Positions 26,564 to 34,979 of a stretch of DNA of 64,000 nt are shown in pieces. Every line of letters begins with the position of its first letter. The first letter of the stretch is position 1. Both the position numbers and the translations under genes were made by a program. The DNA lies in contig JANNXA010000034.1 of assembly GCA_031409275.1 (NCBI GenBank), positions 128,001 to 192,000 of the forward strand, read 5' to 3'. A model generated the notes under the pieces. That model was not told the origin of the DNA and did no database searches. It saw only the letters and a list, made by a program, of their open reading frames with translations. The DNA is from Planctomycetota bacterium (GTDB lineage: Bacteria > Planctomycetota > B15-G4 > SIAN01).

Positions 26564-26783
26564 GGGGTGAGGACCTCGGCATCGATGTCGACCAATTCAG
26601 GCCGCAGGCCGAAATCGCCCGGGAGGGAAAGATCGGAATCCAAACTTTTTCTTTTTTTCGGAAGAAGCCTCAAACCAACTGGACGTTTAGGTCGTACTGT
26701 TGGACGAGTTGACCGTTTTAAGGGAACGCGAGCACCCGCAACTGCGGCCCAGCTCGCTTCAAGAACCACGGAGGATTCGTTCG

Positions 26784-27659
26784 ATGTTGAGCCTTCTCTC
26801 GTTTGCCTTCGCCGCAGCGCTCCCGACCACCGGTGGCACCGACATCGTCGACACCGCAGTCGGCGCCGGGAAGTTCAAGACGCTCGTCGCCGCCGTGCAG
26901 GCCGCGAAGCTCGTCGACACGCTGAAGAGCGCCGGCCCGTTCACGGTGTTCGCGCCGAATGACGACGCGTTCGCCAAGCTCCCGGCCGGCACGGTCGAGA
27001 TGCTGCTCAAGCCCGAGAACCTCGCGAAGCTGCAGGGCGTCCTCGGCTACCACGTCGTCGCCGGCAAGTGGCTCGCGAAGGACGTCTCCACGATGACCGG
27101 CGCGGTGACCGTGAATGGTCAGCGCCTCGACTTCAAGATCGATGAAGGCAGCGTTCGCATCGATGGCGCCAAGGTGATCCAGGCCGACATCGAATGCAGC
27201 AACGGCGTGATCCACGTGATCGACAGCGTCGTGATGCCGTCCGCGAAGAACATCGTCGAGACCGCCGCGGGCGCCGGCTCCTTCAAGACCCTGCTCGCTG
27301 CCGCGACGGCCGCCGGCCTCGCCGAGACGCTGGCCAAGGATGGGCCTTACACCGTCTTCGCGCCGACCGACGAAGCGTTCGCGAAGCTCCCCGCCGGCAC
27401 GGTCGAGAACCTGCTCAAGCCGGAGAACAAGGACAAGCTCGTCTCCATCCTGAAGCTGCACGTCGTCAAGGGCCGCGTCTACAGCACCGAAGCGCTGAAA
27501 GCCGGCATGGCGACCAGCCTCTCGGCGGCCTCGCTCGCCATCGTCAAGGGTGAGAAGAGCGCGACCGTGAATGGCAGCGTCCTCCTCGCCACCGACATCG
27601 ATGCTTCGAATGGCGTCATCCACGTCATCGACACCGTGATCCTGCCCAAGGCGAACTGA
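26784..27659 (+). CDS. Fasciclin (two FAS1 domains) exported protein
   Basis: Two copies of [29 protein letters not shown] and [11 protein letters not shown]. Signal peptide and GGAGG RBS. Confidence 0.96.
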
Positions 27660-27673
27660 TCTCAAGACCCTCT

Positions 27674-27734
27674 CGCGGGGCGGCGAACGGGACAGCGCCT
27701 TTGAGGCGCGCCGCGCGTCGCCCCGCTCTGTTTT
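27674..27734 (+). terminator. Possible intrinsic terminator/stem-loop after fasciclin
   Basis: GCGGGGCGGCG...CGTCGCCCCGC arms enclosing GCGCCT-TTG-AGGCGC, followed by TCTGTTTT. Confidence 0.35.
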
Positions 27735-27773
27735 GCCACCGCCGTGCTTACTGCGGTTTCTCAGGAGTTTCGA

Positions 27774-28343
27774 ATGCGTCGACTGGTTGCACTGGCGCTG
27801 GTGTTGGCGGGAGCGGCTGCCTGTCGCTCCGAGCGCGCGGCGCCGCCGGCCCTCGATGGCGCGACGTTCCCGTCCGTCACGTCCGAGGCGCTCGATGGCA
27901 AGCGCTGGAACCTGCCCGCCGATCTGGCGGGAGCGCCGGCCATCCTGCTGGTCGCGTTCGAGCAGGACGGCCAGTTCGACTGCGATCGCTGGCTGCTCGG
28001 CCTCGCCCAGGCAAAGACGCCGGTCAAGGTCCTCGAAGTGCCGACCATTCCCGGAATGGTCCCTGGCCTGTTCGCGGGCACCATCGACTCCGGCATGCGC
28101 AACGGCATCCCGTCGGAAGATTGGGGCGTCGTCGTGACGCTCTATGGCGACGCCGCCCGACAGGTGTTCGATTTCACCGGCGGCGTCTCCGATCGCAACG
28201 CACGCGTACTGCTGCTCGACGGTGAAGGGCGCGTGGCGTGGCATCACTCGCGCGGCTACTCGGCGCGATTGCTGGTCGACCTCGATGCGCGCGCGCGCGA
28301 ACTCAGCGCGGTGCCGGTTCCGGAGGCGTCGCCGAAGCGTTGA
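27774..28343 (+). CDS. Thioredoxin-like fold lipoprotein
   Basis: Lipobox AAAC. FPSVTSEALDGKRWNLPADLAG...VLLLDGEGRVAW. Confidence 0.75.
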   Translation: MRRLVALALVLAGAAACRSERAAPPALDGATFPSVTSEALDGKRWNLPADLAGAPAILLVAFEQDGQFDCDRWLLGLAQAKTPVKVLEVPTIPGMVPGLFAGTIDSGMRNGIPSEDWGVVVTLYGDAARQVFDFTGGVSDRNARVLLLDGEGRVAWHHSRGYSARLLVDLDARARELSAVPVPEASPKR

Positions 28344-29799
28344 CGTGGCGCTCGGCGTAACGGCGAATCCCGGCGAGCATCCCGTTGAACACGATCGCGT
28401 GGAGCGGGACGACGGCGTACCAGTAGGCGAGGCCCGCGAGGCCCTTCGGCCGGAAGCGCGCGGTCTGGATCAGCCGCGTGCCGGTGCCGGAGGGCTCGAG
28501 TTCGAAGGTCAGCGTCGCGATCCCGGGCAGCTTCATCTCCGCGCGCAGTTCGAGGCGTTTGCCGTCTTCGAGTCCGGTGACGCGCCAGAAGTCGAGCGCC
28601 TCGCCGAAACCGACCGCGTCGGGATCCTTGCGCCGTCGTCGCAGGCCCGGTCCACCGACCAGCCGGTCGATCAGGCCGCGTGCACGCCACAGCAGATCGG
28701 CCGCGTAGTAGCCATGCCCGCCGCCGATCCGGACGACCGCGGCGAAGACCGCCGGCGCCGCCGCCGCCACGTCGCAGCTGCGGCGATCGACGAAGACGCG
28801 GCCGCCCGCCCAGTCGGGATCGCCGGGGATTGCGCCAGCATCGCTCCACGCCGACTCAAGCCCTCCTGCGCGCTCCTTCGCCAACGCCTTCGCGATGGCG
28901 ACGCGCACCGGCAGTCGCGCTCCCGGAAGCAGTTCCAGCGCGCGTGGATCGCGGCAGACCACGCGGTTGCGCAGCCCTTCGGCGAGCGGTCGCGCGATCG
29001 CGTGGTCGATCGGCGTGACGAGGTGGATCCACAGCGAGGAGAGCCGCGGCGTGAGGACCGGCAGCGGCACGATGAGGCGCCGGCGCAACCCGAGTTCCTC
29101 CTGCATCACGTGCATCAGGTCGAGGTAGCTCAGCACGTCGGGGCCGCCGATGTCGAGCGTCGCGCCGATCGTGGCGGGCACGTCGAGGCAGCGGACCAAC
29201 GCATCGAGGACGTCGGCGACGGCGATCGGCTGCGATTCCGTGGTCACCCAGCGCGGGGTCACCATGACGGGCAGCCGCTCCACCAGGTAGCGCAGGATCT
29301 CGAACGACGCGCTGCCGGAGCCGAGGATCATCGCGGCGCGCAGGACGGTGAGCGGAACGCCGCCGCTCGCCAGAGCGGTCTCGACCTCGCGTCGCGAGGC
29401 GAGGTGTTCGGAGAGCCCATCGCCGAGCTCGCCAAGGCCACCGAGGTAGATCAGGCGGCTGACGTTGGCGCGCTTCGCGGCCGCGGCGAACCCCGCTGCG
29501 AGGCGCTGGTCATGGCCGCGGAACTCGCGGCCCGCCGTCATCATCGAGTGGATCAGGTAGTAGGCCGCTTCGCAGCCCGCCATCGCCCGCGTCAACGCCG
29601 CTTCGTCGCCGACGTCGCATTCGACGACGCGCAGTCGCGGATGGTGGATCCAGGTGCGCGCGCTGAGTTTGCGGGCATCGCGCGCGGCGCAGACCACCTC
29701 GTGCCCGGCGTCGAGCAGACGTGGCACCAGGCGCCCACCGATGTAGCCCGTCGCGCCGGTGACGAAGAGGCGCCGGATGGGCTGGGCTGGATCGTTCAC
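28303..29799 (-). CDS. SDR/NAD(P)-binding oxidoreductase with DUF2867 C-terminus (YbjT-like)
   Basis: VTGATGYIGGRLV, AYYLIHSM, GSGSASFEILRYLVERLP, LDFWRV, LRAEMKLPG, GLAYWY. Confidence 0.92.
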   Translation of the reverse strand: MNDPAQPIRRLFVTGATGYIGGRLVPRLLDAGHEVVCAARDARKLSARTWIHHPRLRVVECDVGDEAALTRAMAGCEAAYYLIHSMMTAGREFRGHDQRLAAGFAAAAKRANVSRLIYLGGLGELGDGLSEHLASRREVETALASGGVPLTVLRAAMILGSGSASFEILRYLVERLPVMVTPRWVTTESQPIAVADVLDALVRCLDVPATIGATLDIGGPDVLSYLDLMHVMQEELGLRRRLIVPLPVLTPRLSSLWIHLVTPIDHAIARPLAEGLRNRVVCRDPRALELLPGARLPVRVAIAKALAKERAGGLESAWSDAGAIPGDPDWAGGRVFVDRRSCDVAAAAPAVFAAVVRIGGGHGYYAADLLWRARGLIDRLVGGPGLRRRRKDPDAVGFGEALDFWRVTGLEDGKRLELRAEMKLPGIATLTFELEPSGTGTRLIQTARFRPKGLAGLAYWYAVVPLHAIVFNGMLAGIRRYAERHVNASATPPEPAPR

Positions 29800-30719
29800 G
29801 CGTGCCGATCGGAGCTGGCTCGCGCGCGGTCCTGCAGCGAGGCGAGCGAATCCTCGATCACGACCCGCTGCGGATCGAGCGGCAATCGGGCGTCGCGCAG
29901 CTGGCCGCTGACGCGTCCACCGATCACCAGCAACGTGCGCTCTTCCGCGAGCGCCGCGGCAAGCTCCTCGACGTAGGAGCGCGCCGCGCCGCGCGGCTCG
30001 TCGGAGGAGATCGAGATCCAGACCATCGCCGGTTGCCAGCGCTTCGTCGCCGCGACGACGGCGGCGACGGGCAAGCGTGCCCCGAGGTTGATCGTGCGCC
30101 AGCCCGCCTGCTGCAGCGTCATCGACGCCAGTTGGCTCGGGATCTGGTAGGGATCCCATTCGGGCGACCCGCCGATCGCCAGCGGCCCATCGCTCACCGG
30201 CAGCAGTCGAGTGATCTCGTGCAGCGCATGCAGGCACGCTTCCGTCGCCGCGTGCTCGATGACGATCCCGTCCGGTCCGTGGTGCCACAGCTCGCCGAGG
30301 TGCTCGAGCGCCGGTTGCAGGACGTCGCGCGCGAGCGTGACGAGCTCCACCCCATCGACGAAGGCATGCAGCAGCACGGCGTGCGCTTCCGCGAGCTGCC
30401 CGTCGACGAGGAAGCGGGCGAGCGTTCGCGCGTGTTCATGAGTCGGGAGCCGGGCGAGCTGTCGACCGCGTGCCGGCAGGCCGAGCAGTTCCGGACGTAC
30501 GACTTCGTGGTGCTGTTTCTGGATGAAACGAATCGCTTCCGGCAGACGGATGCGGCGATGGCCGCCGCTCGTGCGAACGAGCTTCAGCTGTCCGGAGTCG
30601 GCCCACCGCTTCACCGATGATTCGGAAACGCCGATCGCCGCGCCGAGGTCGCGCGGGCTCAGGAAGACCGGCAGGGAGGTCATCGAACCAGGAGGGGAGG
30701 ACGGTGAGGGATCGACCAT
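29796..30719 (-). CDS. MerR/excisionase-HTH regulator with B12-binding-like domains (CarH/LitR-like)
   Basis: SPRDLGAAIGVSESSVKRWADSG...TSGGHRR. W-x9-EH motif (WHHGPDGIVIEH). Rossmann part GWRTINLGARLP. Alternative start 30683. Confidence 0.85.
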   Translation of the reverse strand: MVDPSPSSPPGSMTSLPVFLSPRDLGAAIGVSESSVKRWADSGQLKLVRTSGGHRRIRLPEAIRFIQKQHHEVVRPELLGLPARGRQLARLPTHEHARTLARFLVDGQLAEAHAVLLHAFVDGVELVTLARDVLQPALEHLGELWHHGPDGIVIEHAATEACLHALHEITRLLPVSDGPLAIGGSPEWDPYQIPSQLASMTLQQAGWRTINLGARLPVAAVVAATKRWQPAMVWISISSDEPRGAARSYVEELAAALAEERTLLVIGGRVSGQLRDARLPLDPQRVVIEDSLASLQDRARASSDRHA

Positions 30720-31066
30720 GGATCTTCTCGGCGGGAGGAGCTGCGCGCGGGTTTCCGGGACGTGTCGGAATCTGAACGATTTGGTTGTTTTATAGGAGGA
30801 GTTGCTGTGCCGCCAGTGGGCAGGCGCGCGAAATCGTGAAGCGAAGTGATGACGATGACGAGGTCTCCCGCGCGCCACTCCGCGGCGGCGCTCGGCAGCC
30901 GCCGCCCGATCTTCAGCCCCTCGAACTCGGCAGGTGAGAGAGCGTCCGGAGTGGCGCCGGGCCGCCGCGTCTCCACCCCTGCAACCGTCGCGTGGATGTT
31001 TTTGGGGCCGCTACAGTCCGCACCTCACGACGCCGTGGTGCCGTTGGCGGCCAAGAGGAGGATGCG

Positions 31067-33172
31067 ATGGTCCAAGCCTGGTTCGCCGCGTTGCTGGCGG
31101 CTCCGTTCGTCACGCTGACGCCGGAGGTCCCGAAGGTCGGCGCCGACGTGCCTCCATTCCGGATGGCCGACCAGGATGGCCGCCTGATCAGCGCCGCGTC
31201 GCTGCAGGGCAAGCGCTATCTGCTGGCCTTCTATCCCAAGGATTTCACCCCTGGCTGAACCAAGGAGCTCTCGGACCTGCGGGACAGGTTCGCCGAGTTC
31301 AAGTCGCGCGGCGTGATGGTCTTCGGTGTGGCGCTCGATGGGGTCGAGTCGCATCGCAAGTTCTGCGACTCGCTTGCCTTGCCCTTCCAGCTCCTCACCG
31401 ACGAGGAGGGGCGCGCGTCGCGCGACTTCGGGGTCTTCCTCGAAGCGATGGGTGGCATCGCGCGTCGCACCATGTTCCTGGTCGGTGCCGGCGGCAAGCT
31501 CGACTACGTCGACGAGGCCTATGAACTGAAGAGCGACGCCGATTGGGAGGCGCTGCTCGCCGCGCTTGGGCCGCGGCCGGAAGTGCCAGGCGCGACCGCA
31601 CTCATCCCCGAGAAACTCGACGGCGAGGCAATCCGCAAGGATCTCCAGAAGCTGGCGTCGGACGAGTTCGAGGGGCGTGGCGTCGGCACGCGAGCCGAGC
31701 GGTTCACGGTCGACTACCTCGTCGAGCAGCTGACGGCGGCTGGCTTCGCGCCCGGCAACGGCCCGAGCTTCGTGCAGCAGGTGCCGCTGGTCAGCGTCCA
31801 GAAGGCGAAGTCGCCGCAACTCGAACTTGGCAAGGTGCCGCAGCGCTTTCTCGATGACTTCGTGGTGATGACGCGGCGGCAGAAGGAAGCGGCGCTGAAG
31901 GCCAGCGGCGAGCTCGTCTTCGTCGGCTACGGCTGCAGTGCGCCCGAGTTCCGTTGGGACGACTACGCCGGACTCGATGTGAAAGGCAAGGTCGTGGTCT
32001 GCCTGGTCAACGATCCGCCGCTCGCCGATGGCCGCTTCGGCGGCAAGGCGATGACCTACTACGGACGCTGGAACTACAAGTTCGAGGAGGCGGCGCGCCG
32101 TGGTGCCGCCGGTTGCCTGATCGTGCACGAGACCGAGCCGGCCGCCTATCCGTGGGAGGTCGTTCGCAACAGCTGGGGCGGCGAGCAGTTCGATTTCGCG
32201 CGCGCCGATGGCGGCGCTTCGCGCTGCGCCTTCGAAGGCTGGATCACGCGCGAGGCCGCGGTCGATCTCTTCCGTCGCAGCGGCGGTGGACTCGATTTCG
32301 ATGCGGTGCACGCCGCGGCCGGCCAGGACGGCTTCCGTCCGGTCGCGCTTGGCCTCGACGCCAGCGTCCAGATCGAGCAGAAGGTCGCACCGATCGTGTC
32401 GCGCAACGTGCTCGGCGTGCTGCCGGGCTGCGATCCGCGCCAGAGCGGCGAATTCGTGCTCTTCTGCGCGCACTGGGACCACTTCGGCATCGATCTGACC
32501 AAGGTCGGCGACCAGATCCTGAACGGAGCGGTCGACAACGCGAGCGGTTGCGCTGGCCTGCTGGAGCTGGCGCGCGCTCTGGGTCGTGCGCCGCGTCCAG
32601 GCCGCTCGGTGGCCGTGCTCTTCGTCACCGCCGAGGAGCGCGGTCTGCTCGGCTCGCAGTGGTACGCCGAACATCCGCTGATCCCGCTCGAGCGGACGCT
32701 CGCCGCGATCAACCTCGACGGGATCAACGTGTGGGGGCGCACGCGCGACCTCGCCGTCATCGGGATGGGGCAGTCCGATCTCGAAGAGCGGCTCGGCGCG
32801 GCGATCGTCGCGCAGGGGCGAACGCTTGTGGCCGACCCGGAGCCCGAGAAGGGCTCCTACTTCCGCTCCGACCAGCTGAGCTTCGCCAAGAAGGGCGTGC
32901 CGGCGCTCTATGTGAAGCAGGGCGTCGACTTCATCGGGCAAGGAGCCGAGTACGGCCTCGAGATCCGCCGCAGCTACACCGCAGAGCGTTATCACAAGCC
33001 GGGCGATGAGTTCGATCCGAGCTGGGTGTTCGATGGCGCAGTCGAGGACCTTTCGGCGCTCCTCTTCGTGGCGCGCGGCGTGTTGGCCAGCGAGCAGTGG
33101 CCGCAATGGAACGCAACCTCGGAGTTCAAGGCGCTGCGGCCGCAGGCGGGGCCCGCGGCAACCGGCCGCTGA
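31067..33172 (+). CDS. Predicted selenoprotein: BCP/PrxQ peroxiredoxin (Sec at TGA 31256-31258) fused to PA-domain M28 metallopeptidase, 701 aa
   Basis: ATG after AGAGGAGG. ORFs 30992-31258 and 31313-33172 share one frame with the TGA as the only stop. FYPKDFTPG*TKE...SHRKFC...FQLLTD...RRTMFLVG. M28 motifs AHWDH, NGAVDNASG, TAEERGLLGS, RSDQ, YHKPGDE. Confidence 0.85.
31265..31300 (+). promoter_or_regulatory. Bacterial SECIS-like hairpin
   Basis: GAGCUC-U-CGGACCUG-[CGGGA]-CAGGUUCG-CC-GAGUUC. Starts after a 6-nt spacer following the UGA. Apical loop lies 21 nt after the UGA with G at loop position 2. Confidence 0.75.
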
Positions 33173-33189
33173 GCGAAGGAGGAGATCCC

Positions 33190-33789
33190 GTGTTCGTCGT
33201 CATCGATTGCGAGACCACCGGCCTGCCGCGCTCGTGGAGCGCGCCGAAGAGCGATCTCTCCAACTGGCCGCGCGTGGTCCAGCTGGCATGGGCGAGCTTC
33301 GACGCGCAAGGCAAGGCGATGACGGCGCGCAGCCTTCTCGTGCGTCCCGACGGATTCACCATTCCCGCAGACGCCGTCCGCGTGCACGGCGTCTCGACCG
33401 AGCGCGCCCTGCGCGAAGGGTCACCGCTGGCCGAAGTGCTGTCGGCCTTCGCTGCGGCCATGAAGCCGGCGCGGTTCGTGGTGGCGCACAACCTCTCCTA
33501 CGACGAGTCGGTGCTCGGCGCCGAGTTCGCGCGCGCGCGCCGTCCCGATCCCTTCGAAGGCAAGCAGCGCCTCTGCACCATGAAGGCGTCGACCGAGCTA
33601 TGCGCGATCCCGGCCGAGAAGGGCTTCAAGTGGCCCAAGCTCCACGAACTCCACGCGAGGCTCTTCGGTCAGCCATCGGAGGAGCGGCACGAGGCGGCGT
33701 ACGACGTCGACGTGTGCGCCAGGTGCTTCTTCGAGCTCCGGCGCCTCGGCGTGGTCAAGACCGCGCGTGAGCAGAGCCTTTTCGGGTAG
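33190..33789 (+). CDS. DEDDh 3'-5' exonuclease (DnaQ-like)
   Basis: VIDCETTGLP, VVAHNLSYD, HEAAYDV. AAGGAGG RBS. Confidence 0.9.
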   Translation: MFVVIDCETTGLPRSWSAPKSDLSNWPRVVQLAWASFDAQGKAMTARSLLVRPDGFTIPADAVRVHGVSTERALREGSPLAEVLSAFAAAMKPARFVVAHNLSYDESVLGAEFARARRPDPFEGKQRLCTMKASTELCAIPAEKGFKWPKLHELHARLFGQPSEERHEAAYDVDVCARCFFELRRLGVVKTAREQSLFG

Positions 33790-33901
33790 CAGCGGCTCGG
33801 CGCACGATTTCATGGTCGGGAAAACGATCGGCGACTCGTCGGTAATGGAGCGGCGGCGCCGCGAGTGGCGCCGTCCTTCACAACCTCTTCAGGAGTGACG
33901 T

Positions 33902-34363
33902 ATGGACATGGAGATGCCCAAGCCCGGTCCCGCTCATCAGCAGCTCGCCAAGCTCGCCGGCCAGTGGACCGGCACCGAGACGATGCACCCGTCGCCGTGG
34001 GATCCGCAGGGCGGTCCCGCGACCGGCAAGGTGAACAACCGTGTCGCGCTCGACGGTTTCAACGTCATCCAGGATTACGAGCAGACGCGCGGCGGCGTCG
34101 TCACGTTCCGCGGCCACGGCGTCTTCTCCGTCGATTCGGAAAGCGGTCAGCCGACCCTGCACTGGTGGGATTCGATGGGCTGCACGGCGAGCCTCTTCAC
34201 CGGCGCCTGGAATGGCAACACCCTGGTGATGACCAGCCAGTCGCCGATGGGCCACTCGCGCTGCACCTTCGGCCTCGCCGGCGCTCGCTACACCTTCCTG
34301 ATGGAGATGTCGCAGGACGGGAAGCAGTGGGCGCCCGCAATGTCCGGCAGCTACACGAAGTAG
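33902..34363 (+). CDS. DUF1579-like protein
   Basis: PKPGPAHQQLAKLAGQWTG...WWDSMG...SQDGKQW. AGGAG RBS. Confidence 0.8.
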   Translation: MDMEMPKPGPAHQQLAKLAGQWTGTETMHPSPWDPQGGPATGKVNNRVALDGFNVIQDYEQTRGGVVTFRGHGVFSVDSESGQPTLHWWDSMGCTASLFTGAWNGNTLVMTSQSPMGHSRCTFGLAGARYTFLMEMSQDGKQWAPAMSGSYTK

Positions 34364-34438
34364 GAACCCGCGGTGGGGCGGCTCCAGCGGGGAGCCGCCG
34401 CCGCCTTGCCGCGCGAGCGAGGGCGACGATCCGCGGCC

Positions 34439-34979
34439 ATGGACCCCTTCCCGCGGAACGAGCTCTCGCGCGGTCAGTTCACGATCGGCGCCCTGAGCGG
34501 GCTGCTGACGACGAGCGTCCTCCAGACCCTGCGGGCGGCCGTCGACTTCGATCGCCTCACCAAGGAGGTCGCGTTCCCCGATTCGGGCGAGCGATCGGTG
34601 GGCTTCGACTTCCCCCAGCCCCGAGGGGCTCGCGCTCACGTTCGGGAAGCAGATCTTCGTGCTCGGGAAGGGGCGCTCGATCGTGCCGCACGGACACAAC
34701 AACATGGCCACCGCCTTCGATGTCCTGAAGGGCGAGTTCCATGGTCGTCATTTCGAGCGCGTCGAGGACATGGTGATCGAGCCGACGATCGACCGCAAGT
34801 TCGGTCCGGCCGAGGCGTCGACGATCAGCGACTACAAGGACAACGAACCTCTTCGTTGCGGCCGCAGCGATCCGAGCAACTTCCTCATCGGGTCGGACGG
34901 TCGAATCGCGTGGCGGGCACTCGGCTGCGACGAGACCGCCTTGCGCACGGCCCTCGAAAACGTCGTCAAGGCGAAGTGA
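34439..34979 (+). pseudogene. Frameshifted cupin-like gene remnant with a thioredoxin-like tail
   Basis: One frame reads ...DFDRLTKEVAFPDSGERSVGFDFPQP. After a +1 shift in CCCC (34619-34622) it continues EGLALTFGKQIFVLGKGRSIVPHGHNNMATAF...STISDYKDN, then an unrelated tail NFLIGSDGRIAWR. Confidence 0.6.

What the first reader, a model, noticed from the sequence alone, without database searches (positions are those of the whole stretch)
31067..33172. Hidden selenoprotein: Sec-peroxiredoxin (BCP/PrxQ) fused to an M28 metallopeptidase
Seen: the track splits this locus, but both ORFs share one frame and the only interruption is TGA 31256-31258, codon 64 from the ATG with a strong RBS. Read-through gives FYPKDFTPG-U-TKELSDLRDRFAEFKSRGVMVFGVALDGVESHRKFCDSLALPFQLLTD...IARRTMFLVG. 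The frame then runs without a stop into a complete PA+M28 peptidase. Known: FYPKDxTPGCT is the BCP/PrxQ active site (PxxxTxxC), so the UGA sits exactly on the peroxidatic Cys. Cys100 in SHRKFC matches the helix-3 resolving Cys of that subfamily, and the catalytic Arg region is intact. Sec-peroxiredoxins are known, but I do not know of a described Sec-Prx-M28 fusion. Inferred: a possibly exported 701-aa bifunctional enzyme whose peptidase domain is made only when UGA is recoded. Selenium supply would then gate peptidase expression, and peroxide chemistry could protect or regulate the peptidase.
Basis: partly seen in the sequence, partly recalled or inferred. Interest (0 to 1): 0.92.

Follow-up and report, generated by a model that had tools for sequence, protein, structure and literature searches.

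The report
Selenium peroxidase fused to exported peptidase
An apparent stop codon inside this bacterial gene is very likely read as selenocysteine, so it likely makes one probably exported protein that joins a predicted peroxide-destroying selenium enzyme to a predicted zinc peptidase, a pairing whose relatives also occur with cysteine, serine or no peroxidase part at all.

Summary
Confirmed. Window 31067-33172 is one 701-codon frame broken only by TGA at codon 64, the peroxidatic position of a PrxQ/BCP-like peroxiredoxin (PxxxTxxU), followed by an intact PA-M28 peptidase. The genome has selA, selB, selD and tRNA-Sec. A hairpin meeting the published bacterial SECIS constraints follows the UGA. 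The same TGA, hairpin and fusion occur in 5 of 5 genomes of this Planctomycetota genus, and reassembled contigs show TGA. New here: the fusion is a small family with four states: Sec plus a helix-3 Cys, 1-Cys, Ser, and peroxiredoxin deleted (two Sec-competent sister genomes, nested among fused forms, AU p=0.0001). So the peptidase persists without the redox domain. Selenium gating follows from the gene layout but looks incidental, and nothing shows redox control of the peptidase. A DsbD with UxxC in 7 of 8 family genomes is a plausible electron donor. I found no description of the fusion in the papers searched. Verdict: real new selenoprotein architecture built from known parts; interest 0.5.

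The parts
31053..31061 (+). Ribosome-binding site AAGAGGAGG, 5 nt before the ATG
   Evidence: GGAG/GAGG-type sites also precede the starts of the four genus orthologues
31067..33172 (+). Fused gene: leader + Sec-peroxiredoxin + PA-M28 peptidase, 701 aa
   Evidence: 5 of 5 genus genomes
31067..31123 (+). Hydrophobic leader (aa 1-19), predicted export signal
   Evidence: max 9-residue hydropathy 2.2-2.8 in 10 of 10 full-length fusions; absent from the genome's other Sec-BCP on C45; SignalP not available
31124..31576 (+). PrxQ/BCP-like peroxiredoxin domain (aa 20-170)
   Evidence: Pfam AhpC-TSA; best solved match 5enu E 1.2e-17
31256..31258 (+). In-frame UGA, codon 64, inferred selenocysteine at the peroxidatic site (P57xxxT61xxU64)
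   Evidence: Cys in 4 database clusters of the same fusion
31265..31300 (+). Predicted bacterial SECIS: 8-bp upper stem, apical loop CGGGA (31280-31284) 21 nt after UGA, lower stem
   Evidence: rare AGG codon kept in 6 of 6 loci; codons 69-75 pS 0.076 vs median 0.38
31364..31366 (+). Cys100, predicted helix-3 resolving cysteine
   Evidence: aligns with SHDNFC of 5iiz/3gkk; 9 of 9 Sec-type rows, 0 of 5 Cys/Ser rows
31466..31468 (+). Arg134, conserved peroxiredoxin arginine
   Evidence: invariant in 17 of 17 rows of A1; aligns with the Arg of ERSTF in 5enu
31577..31609 (+). Pro-rich linker of variable length, low model confidence
   Evidence: length varies among orthologues; pLDDT under 50 at 172-180
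31610..33142 (+). PA-inserted M28 metallopeptidase; predicted metal/catalytic residues H469, D471, D490, E523, E524, D551, H643
   Evidence: Pfam; all seven kept in 16 of 16 clade rows; fold closest to 2ek8 and PaAP 8ac7
33190..33789 (+). DEDD-type exonuclease gene directly downstream, probably co-transcribed
   Evidence: Pfam RNase_T; downstream in 3 of 4 relatives' loci; no terminator-like site in 30700-34700

Best explanation
The gene carries an in-frame UGA at the peroxiredoxin catalytic position that is very likely decoded as selenocysteine, giving one probably exported protein in which a predicted selenium peroxidase and a predicted zinc peptidase likely work side by side as largely independent enzymes. 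Mechanism: SelB bound to the SECIS hairpin inserts Sec64 (inferred from genes and hairpin). The leader takes the protein to the periplasm (predicted). Sec64 reduces H2O2 or organic peroxides, is resolved by Cys100 into a Se-S bond (inferred from the helix-3 type of PrxQ), and is re-reduced by the DsbD route, here a DsbD with UxxC, directly or through exported Sec-TlpA proteins (inferred by analogy with Caulobacter PprX). The PA-M28 domain would trim peptides as a two-zinc exopeptidase (family inference; substrate not known). The fusion arose once, probably by joining an exported BCP with its leader to an M28 gene; afterwards the redox domain appears as Sec+Cys100, 1-Cys, Ser, or is deleted. 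Because there is no second start, full-length peptidase would need UGA read-through, but this dependence is likely a by-product.
For: Sec: selA E 7.8e-123, SelB wing E 6.4e-17, selD E 6.4e-101 with its own TGA, tRNA-SeC(tca). tRNA-Sec over cut-off in 4 of 4 other genus genomes. TGA, hairpin and AGG in 6 of 6 loci with DNA. The 42 codons before the UGA are as conserved as those after it (pN/pS 0.47 vs 0.48, M28 0.43). No Shine-Dalgarno-led start between UGA and peptidase in 5 of 5. Export: leaders in 10 of 10 full-length fusions; the closest free-standing peroxiredoxins shown (P0050, P0052, P0058) also carry leaders. Donor: DsbD-gamma with TGA at the first Cys of CxxC in 7 of 8 family genomes; two leader-bearing WUGPC redoxins. 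Independence: unfused G005/G007 proteins are 85-86% identical to Cys fusion P0013 and nest among fused forms, G005 keeps a decayed remnant of the peroxiredoxin tail; Ser form P0012; flexible linker; BCP domains fuse to many unrelated partners.
Against: No expression, proteomic or activity data. The leader of this copy is short and has no basic residue; SignalP was not run. The hairpin's energy is unusual only in the 47-nt window (z -2.36; -0.20 and -0.74 for 60 and 80 nt), and 0 of 13 pairs show a two-sided compensatory change. The redox domain is as conserved as the peptidase in the Sec clade (70-81% vs 70-82%), and a second, reverse-order M28-PDZ-BCP fusion exists (3 clusters), both compatible with a functional link. 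NCBIfam BCP model is not reached (86.8 vs 140 bits).
Confidence: 0.62

Rival explanations
1. Coupled enzyme: the Sec-peroxiredoxin domain shields the peptidase from peroxide, or senses peroxide and switches the peptidase through a thiol relay or domain contact.
For: Fusion kept across two clades; independent M28-PDZ-BCP fusion in 3 clusters and BCP joined to a peptidase-like domain in P0019/P0020 (weak deacetylase hit E 5.4e-5; M14-like motif recalled); clade-specific Cys290 in 16 of 16 clade rows vs 0 of 22 outgroup rows.
Against: Redox domain deleted in G005/G007 and Ser-substituted in P0012 while all clade cysteines and metal ligands stay; unfused M28 paralogues of the same genome have 5-6 Cys and two outgroup proteins (P0044, P0046) have 5; BCP fuses to many unrelated partners.
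Confidence: 0.2
2. Adaptive selenium switch: the UGA is kept so that this peptidase, and the downstream exonuclease through translational coupling, are made only when selenium is available.
For: No alternative start in 5 of 5; stop and start nearly abut (TGACATG) before the exonuclease in 2 of 5 genomes.
Against: Sec sits exactly on the catalytic site with a matching Cys100, which catalysis explains alone; Sec-competent sister genomes make the peptidase without any UGA; four other clear M28 matches in the genome; DsbD and SelD themselves need Sec, so selenium lack would be a cell-wide problem.
Confidence: 0.08
3. Cytoplasmic enzyme: the leader is not a signal peptide and the protein is recycled by thioredoxin.
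For: This copy's leader is short (about 19 aa) with no Lys or Arg; G002's is shorter.
Against: Hydrophobic leaders in 10 of 10 full-length fusions, several longer and AxA-like; unfused relatives keep the leader after losing the redox domain; the genome's other BCP has none.
Confidence: 0.08
4. Pseudogene or assembly error: the TGA is a true stop.
For: Database gene calls split the gene and start at Met84 (P0006).
Against: Same TGA in 6 of 6 loci at 64-81% identity, conserved hairpin, full Sec machinery, contigs without differences, equal conservation on both sides of the TGA.
Confidence: 0.02

Closest known systems
Sec-containing bacterial peroxiredoxin (Prx, PF00578, TxxU), listed as experimentally verified in PMC13188914 Table 1
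   Same: PxxxTxxU motif, UGA decoded with an in-gene SECIS.
   Different: Here fused to a 510-aa PA-M28 peptidase and preceded by a leader; none of the table's family names (read in full) includes a peptidase or M28 partner. Score against the PrxU model NF040737 is far below cut-off (47.9 vs 270).
Helix-3 atypical 2-Cys BCP/PrxQ (PDB 5iiz, 3gkk; Xanthomonas campestris origin recalled)
   Same: FYPKDxTPGC motif and SHxxFC Cys 36 residues downstream align without gaps. About 6% of PrxQ have this arrangement (PMC4749874, passage).
   Different: Sec replaces the peroxidatic Cys; leader and peptidase added; the C-terminal half resembles AhpE (4x0x, E 4.5e-15).
Caulobacter periplasmic peroxiredoxin PprX (PMC3322552)
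   Same: PrxQ-type with a signal sequence; recycled by a DsbD-family protein via TlpA or directly by DsbD-gamma; DsbD and TlpA-like genes are present here.
   Different: PprX is a free-standing Cys enzyme; here Sec, fused, and the DsbD and TlpA-like proteins carry UGA too. Export and electron route were not tested here.
PA-containing M28 aminopeptidases (Aneurinibacillus 2ek8, Pseudomonas PaAP 8ac7)
   Same: Top Foldseek matches (E 9.8e-24, 1.2e-20); metal ligands align with Vibrio-type leucyl aminopeptidase 3b3t over residues 462-565.
   Different: Only 18-20% identity; no solved member of this subfamily; substrate unknown; N-terminal redox domain.
Fusion selenoproteins from marine metagenomes (Prx-PP2C phosphatase and others; PMC2398784, passages)
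   Same: Sec-peroxiredoxin joined to a non-redox enzyme domain.
   Different: Different partner; 'peptidase' occurs 0 times in that paper's main text.

Membership tests
Bacterial selenoprotein (SelB/bSECIS) | selA, selB, selC, selD in the genome | tested here: met
Bacterial selenoprotein (SelB/bSECIS) | Hairpin with 3-9 nt loop, 4-16 bp stem, G in first two loop positions, 16-37 nt from UGA, MFE <= -7.5 (PMC13188914 Fig. 2 legend) | tested here: met
   loop CGGGA (5 nt), 8 bp, 21 nt, -19.5 kcal/mol
Bacterial selenoprotein (SelB/bSECIS) | UGA conserved, aligning with Cys in homologues | tested here: met
   TGA in 6 of 6 loci; Cys in 4 fused clusters
Bacterial selenoprotein (SelB/bSECIS) | Selenium in the full-length product | not testable with these tools
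   needs proteomics or 75Se labelling
Peroxiredoxin, BCP/PrxQ subfamily | PxxxT/SxxC/U and conserved Arg | tested here: met
   P57, T61, U64, R134
Peroxiredoxin, BCP/PrxQ subfamily | Subfamily profile score | tested here: inconclusive
   best NCBIfam hit is BCP PRK09437 but 86.8 < 140 bits; best solved hits are BCP/PrxQ, AhpE close behind; PREX/DASP not available
Peroxiredoxin, BCP/PrxQ subfamily | Helix-3 resolving Cys | tested here: met
   C100 aligns with SHDNFC of 5iiz/3gkk and lies in predicted helix 93-103; Se-S bond itself not shown
Peroxiredoxin, BCP/PrxQ subfamily | Thiol-dependent peroxidase activity | not testable with these tools
   needs assay
Peptidase family M28 (PA-inserted) | Pfam PF04389 and PA above cut-off; M28 fold | tested here: met
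Peptidase family M28 (PA-inserted) | Five metal ligands and catalytic Glu/Asp | tested here: met
   H469, D490, E523, E524, D551 align with 3b3t; H643 and D471 invariant in 16 of 16 clade rows (role of H643 as fifth ligand recalled)
Peptidase family M28 (PA-inserted) | Peptidase activity and substrate | not testable with these tools
   needs assay
PprX-type periplasmic peroxiredoxin | Cleavable signal peptide, periplasmic location | tested here: inconclusive
   hydrophobic leader in 10 of 10; no predictor or fractionation
PprX-type periplasmic peroxiredoxin | Reduction by a DsbD/ScsB-TlpA route | not testable with these tools
   genes present; electron transfer not shown

The most novel reading that the evidence does not exclude
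These Planctomycetota run an all-selenium periplasmic electron chain, Sec-DsbD to Sec-TlpA to the Sec64-Cys100 peroxiredoxin, whose last member is built into an M28 peptidase and tunes or protects it, so that envelope peptide processing is tied to both peroxide and selenium; M28-BCP fusions arose twice, in opposite order, for that reason.
Probability: 0.15. Interest if true: 0.8.

Novelty: new variant of a known kind. Interest (0 to 1): 0.5.

Why it matters
It adds a selenoprotein architecture missing from the 2026 catalogue I read and corrects gene calls: databases hold the Sec forms as truncated 'M28 peptidases' without leader or active site (8 of 13 fused clusters). The family gives a natural series on one scaffold (Sec with resolving Cys, 1-Cys, Ser, deleted) for asking what selenium adds to a peroxiredoxin and whether a Sec-PrxQ needs a resolving Cys. 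It also points to a probable exported Sec-peroxiredoxin with a Sec-DsbD donor, a periplasmic redox route I did not find described. If the two domains turn out to be coupled, it would be a peptidase under peroxide or selenium control.

Tried and rejected
Domain-contact prediction (complex prediction) was not available: the queue was full and nothing was folded, so contact between the domains is untested. The single-chain model gives no interface measure. Cys enrichment of the peptidase as a sign of redox coupling: rejected as lineage composition; Cys pairs 290/387 and 467/495 do not co-vary as obligate disulfides. Loss of the redox domain explained by loss of Sec machinery: rejected, G005 and G007 keep selA and selB, G005 also tRNA-Sec. 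Duplication from the genome's own Sec-BCP (C45): not supported, it groups elsewhere. Direction Sec to Cys or Cys to Sec: unresolved (AU p 0.36). Whether G005 and G007 reflect one or two deletions: unresolved. Upstream oxidative-stress context: not conserved, the B12/HTH regulator is found in 1 of 4 relatives' loci. Promoter and terminator scan: 0 sites. No RNA holder listed. The careful 45-row tree did not finish; quick trees are used. SECIS energy z-score was significant in 1 of 3 windows. Earlier-findings look-ups by sequence and by words gave nothing.

Full report
Observation. Window 31067-33172 (+) translates to 701 codons with a single internal stop, TGA 31256-31258, codon 64. A strong ribosome-binding site precedes the ATG. 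Pfam places AhpC-TSA at 24-147, PA at 280-357 and Peptidase_M28 at 447-654, all over cut-off. The UGA is the last position of P57xxxT61xxU64, the peroxiredoxin catalytic motif (PMC13188914, passage). Contigs of two runs cover the codon with 0 differences; both come from one study, and one may be the window's source.

Is it selenocysteine? The genome (92.9% complete) has selA, SelB wing-3, selD with its own in-frame TGA, and tRNA-SeC(tca). A hairpin follows the UGA: 8-bp upper stem, loop CGGGA, 21 nt from the codon, -19.5 kcal/mol. It meets all four constraints of the consensus model (PMC13188914 Fig. 2 legend). Its energy stands out from shuffles in only 1 of 3 windows tried (z -2.36, -0.20, -0.74), and no pair shows a two-sided compensatory change (0 of 13). 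The sequence evidence is stronger. The stem uses AGG for Arg74 in 5 of 5 genus genes and in L064, while AGG is 9 of 263 Arg codons in those five genes and about 2.4% genome-wide. Codons 69-75 have pS 0.076 and pN 0, ranking 7th lowest of 664 windows (median 0.38). The same TGA sits at the same codon in 4 of 4 other genomes of the genus, at 71-81% identity, all with tRNA-Sec, and in a metagenome contig at 64% (L064, which ends at the start of the peptidase). Codons before the UGA are as conserved as those after (uncorrected pN/pS 0.47 vs 0.48; peptidase 0.43). I put recoding at about 97%.

Distribution. The unbroken Prx-linker-M28 match was found only in this genus: 5 of 42 genomes of the class and 3 of a 401-genome phylum sample, all three of the genus. 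Named records holding it are titled Planctomycetota or Phycisphaerales MAGs (L144-L147; not counted as extra genomes). In the protein collection, 13 of 41 hits carry both domains: 8 begin after the Sec site and all 8 have SH[RQ]KFC; 4 are complete Cys forms (FYPKDF[TS]PGCT); 1 has Ser (FFPRDYTPNST). JGI's automatic names for the Cys forms join 'peroxiredoxin' and 'M28 family'. A search of 1.84 billion representatives added only two fragments of the same type (P0047, P0048).

Four states of one fusion. Cys100 is present in 9 of 9 Sec-type rows and 0 of 5 Cys/Ser rows; this is one evolutionary contrast, not fourteen. It aligns with the helix-3 Cys of solved BCPs 5iiz/3gkk, an arrangement of about 6% of PrxQ (PMC4749874, passage). 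In a tree of the peptidase domain the fusions form one clade (support 99-100) that also contains the unfused genes of G005 and G007, next to Cys form P0013 (quick trees). Forcing the 13 fused rows together is rejected (AU p 0.0001; group named after the first tree was seen). The unfused proteins are 85-86% identical to P0013, and G005 keeps DVDGEAQLAAPGPRP, a decayed copy of the peroxiredoxin tail. No copy of that redox domain was found elsewhere in these genomes (86% and 70% complete). They keep selA and selB. So the peptidase gene survives loss of its redox partner. Whether Sec or Cys came first is unresolved (p 0.36). The fused peroxiredoxins group (support 98) with free-standing ones, several with leaders and two with UGA, not with the genome's own Sec-BCP.

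Peptidase. H469, D490, E523, E524 and D551 align with the leucyl aminopeptidase 3b3t; these, D471 and H643 are kept in 16 of 16 clade rows. The model (pLDDT 73.5, low-confidence linker 172-180) matches PA-containing aminopeptidases 2ek8 and PaAP at 18-20% identity. The substrate is not known.

Location and electron supply. All 10 full-length fusions have a hydrophobic leader; this copy's is short and lacks a basic residue, and no signal-peptide predictor was at hand. Caulobacter PprX is a periplasmic PrxQ reduced by ScsB via TlpA, or by DsbD-gamma (PMC3322552, passages). This genome has a DsbD whose gamma domain reads FTGFT-U-INC with a SECIS-like hairpin; the TGA is at that position in 7 of 8 family genomes, the eighth has Cys. 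Two leader-bearing redoxins with W-U-GPC are also present. That they reduce this protein is inference.

Gating: no Shine-Dalgarno-led start lies between the UGA and the peptidase in 5 of 5 genes, so full-length peptidase would need read-through. But Cys, Ser and deleted forms exist, the deleted ones in Sec-competent genomes, and this genome has four other clear M28 matches. I read gating as a by-product. Protection or regulation: the clade's peptidase has 3-9 Cys against 0-5 in outgroups, but two unfused paralogues of this genome have 5-6, so this is probably lineage composition. An independent PA-M28-PDZ-BCP fusion exists in 3 clusters, which is a hint, but the same two calls show BCP fused to aldo-keto reductase, TPR, DUF498, dockerin, MsrB and other partners. 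A domain-contact prediction could not be run.

Literature. Searches for selenocysteine+peroxiredoxin+M28+fusion and selenoprotein+Planctomycetota+UGA returned 0 papers. Searches listed 5, 2, 2 and 12 papers, none on this fusion by title or abstract start. I read parts 1-2 of 3 of section 7 of PMC13188914, including its whole table of 119 families: Prx (TxxU) is listed, no peptidase fusion and no plain DsbD entry. I read passages only of PMC2398784 (Sec-Prx fusions to other partners; 'peptidase' 0 times), PMC4749874, PMC3322552, PMC7231847 and PMC1794560. Supplements were not read and might list such sequences; subscription journals are not searched.

Verdict. A real, conserved, mis-annotated selenoprotein with an architecture I did not find described, made of two well-known domains. 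Most likely two enzymes on one leader, with the redox domain evolutionarily optional. New variant of a known kind; interest 0.5.

Noticed in passing
L224 (G000:C51, TGA at 106506, minus strand); L234-L239: DsbD with UxxC in the gamma domain and a SECIS-like hairpin; TGA in 7 of 8 family genomes. No plain DsbD entry in the catalogue table I read (only the TsoB fusion and a 'thiol:disulfide interchange protein').
   Followed up: partly
L226 (G000:C34:64177 -) and L227 (G000:C14:295797 -): Two FG-GAP/ASPIC-UnbV proteins with a C-terminal TlpA-like domain carry an in-frame TGA in a shared motif (U-S-[TF]-[YW]-W-R) with SECIS-like hairpins; conservation in relatives not checked.
   Followed up: partly
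   Followed up: partly
L228 (G000:C43:63697 +): Leader-bearing protein with MNGHPLGCV-U-NNG and a CGUGA-loop hairpin; no family hit.
   Followed up: no
L229 (G000:C37:62433 +), L230, L231, L232: Lipoprotein-like MsrB-MsrA with Sec at the MsrA catalytic site, two W-U-GPC redoxins with leaders, and a leaderless Sec-BCP.
   Followed up: partly
P0093, P0203, P0204: Independent fusion in reverse order: PA-M28-PDZ-BCP (Cys form), 3 clusters.
   Followed up: partly
P0019, P0020: Leader + BCP with helix-3 Cys fused to a deacylase/carboxypeptidase-like domain (GIHGEEP, DLHED; family recalled, weak NCBIfam hit).
   Followed up: partly
L149, L061: Free-standing Sec-BCPs related to the fused domain (FYPKDFTSG*T in a Myxococcales record; FYPKSFTGG*T in G043), both without Cys100.
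   Followed up: no
window 26700-30878: Upstream, divergent: B12-binding/HTH regulator (Pfam), then a likely NAD(P)-dependent oxidoreductase and a fasciclin-like gene (names recalled); resembles light or oxidative-stress regulons but is next to the fusion in only 1 of 4 relatives' loci.
   Followed up: partly
L008, L009 downstream of the fusion stop: TGACATG: the exonuclease start lies one base after the fusion's stop in 2 of 5 genomes, suggesting translational coupling.
   Followed up: no
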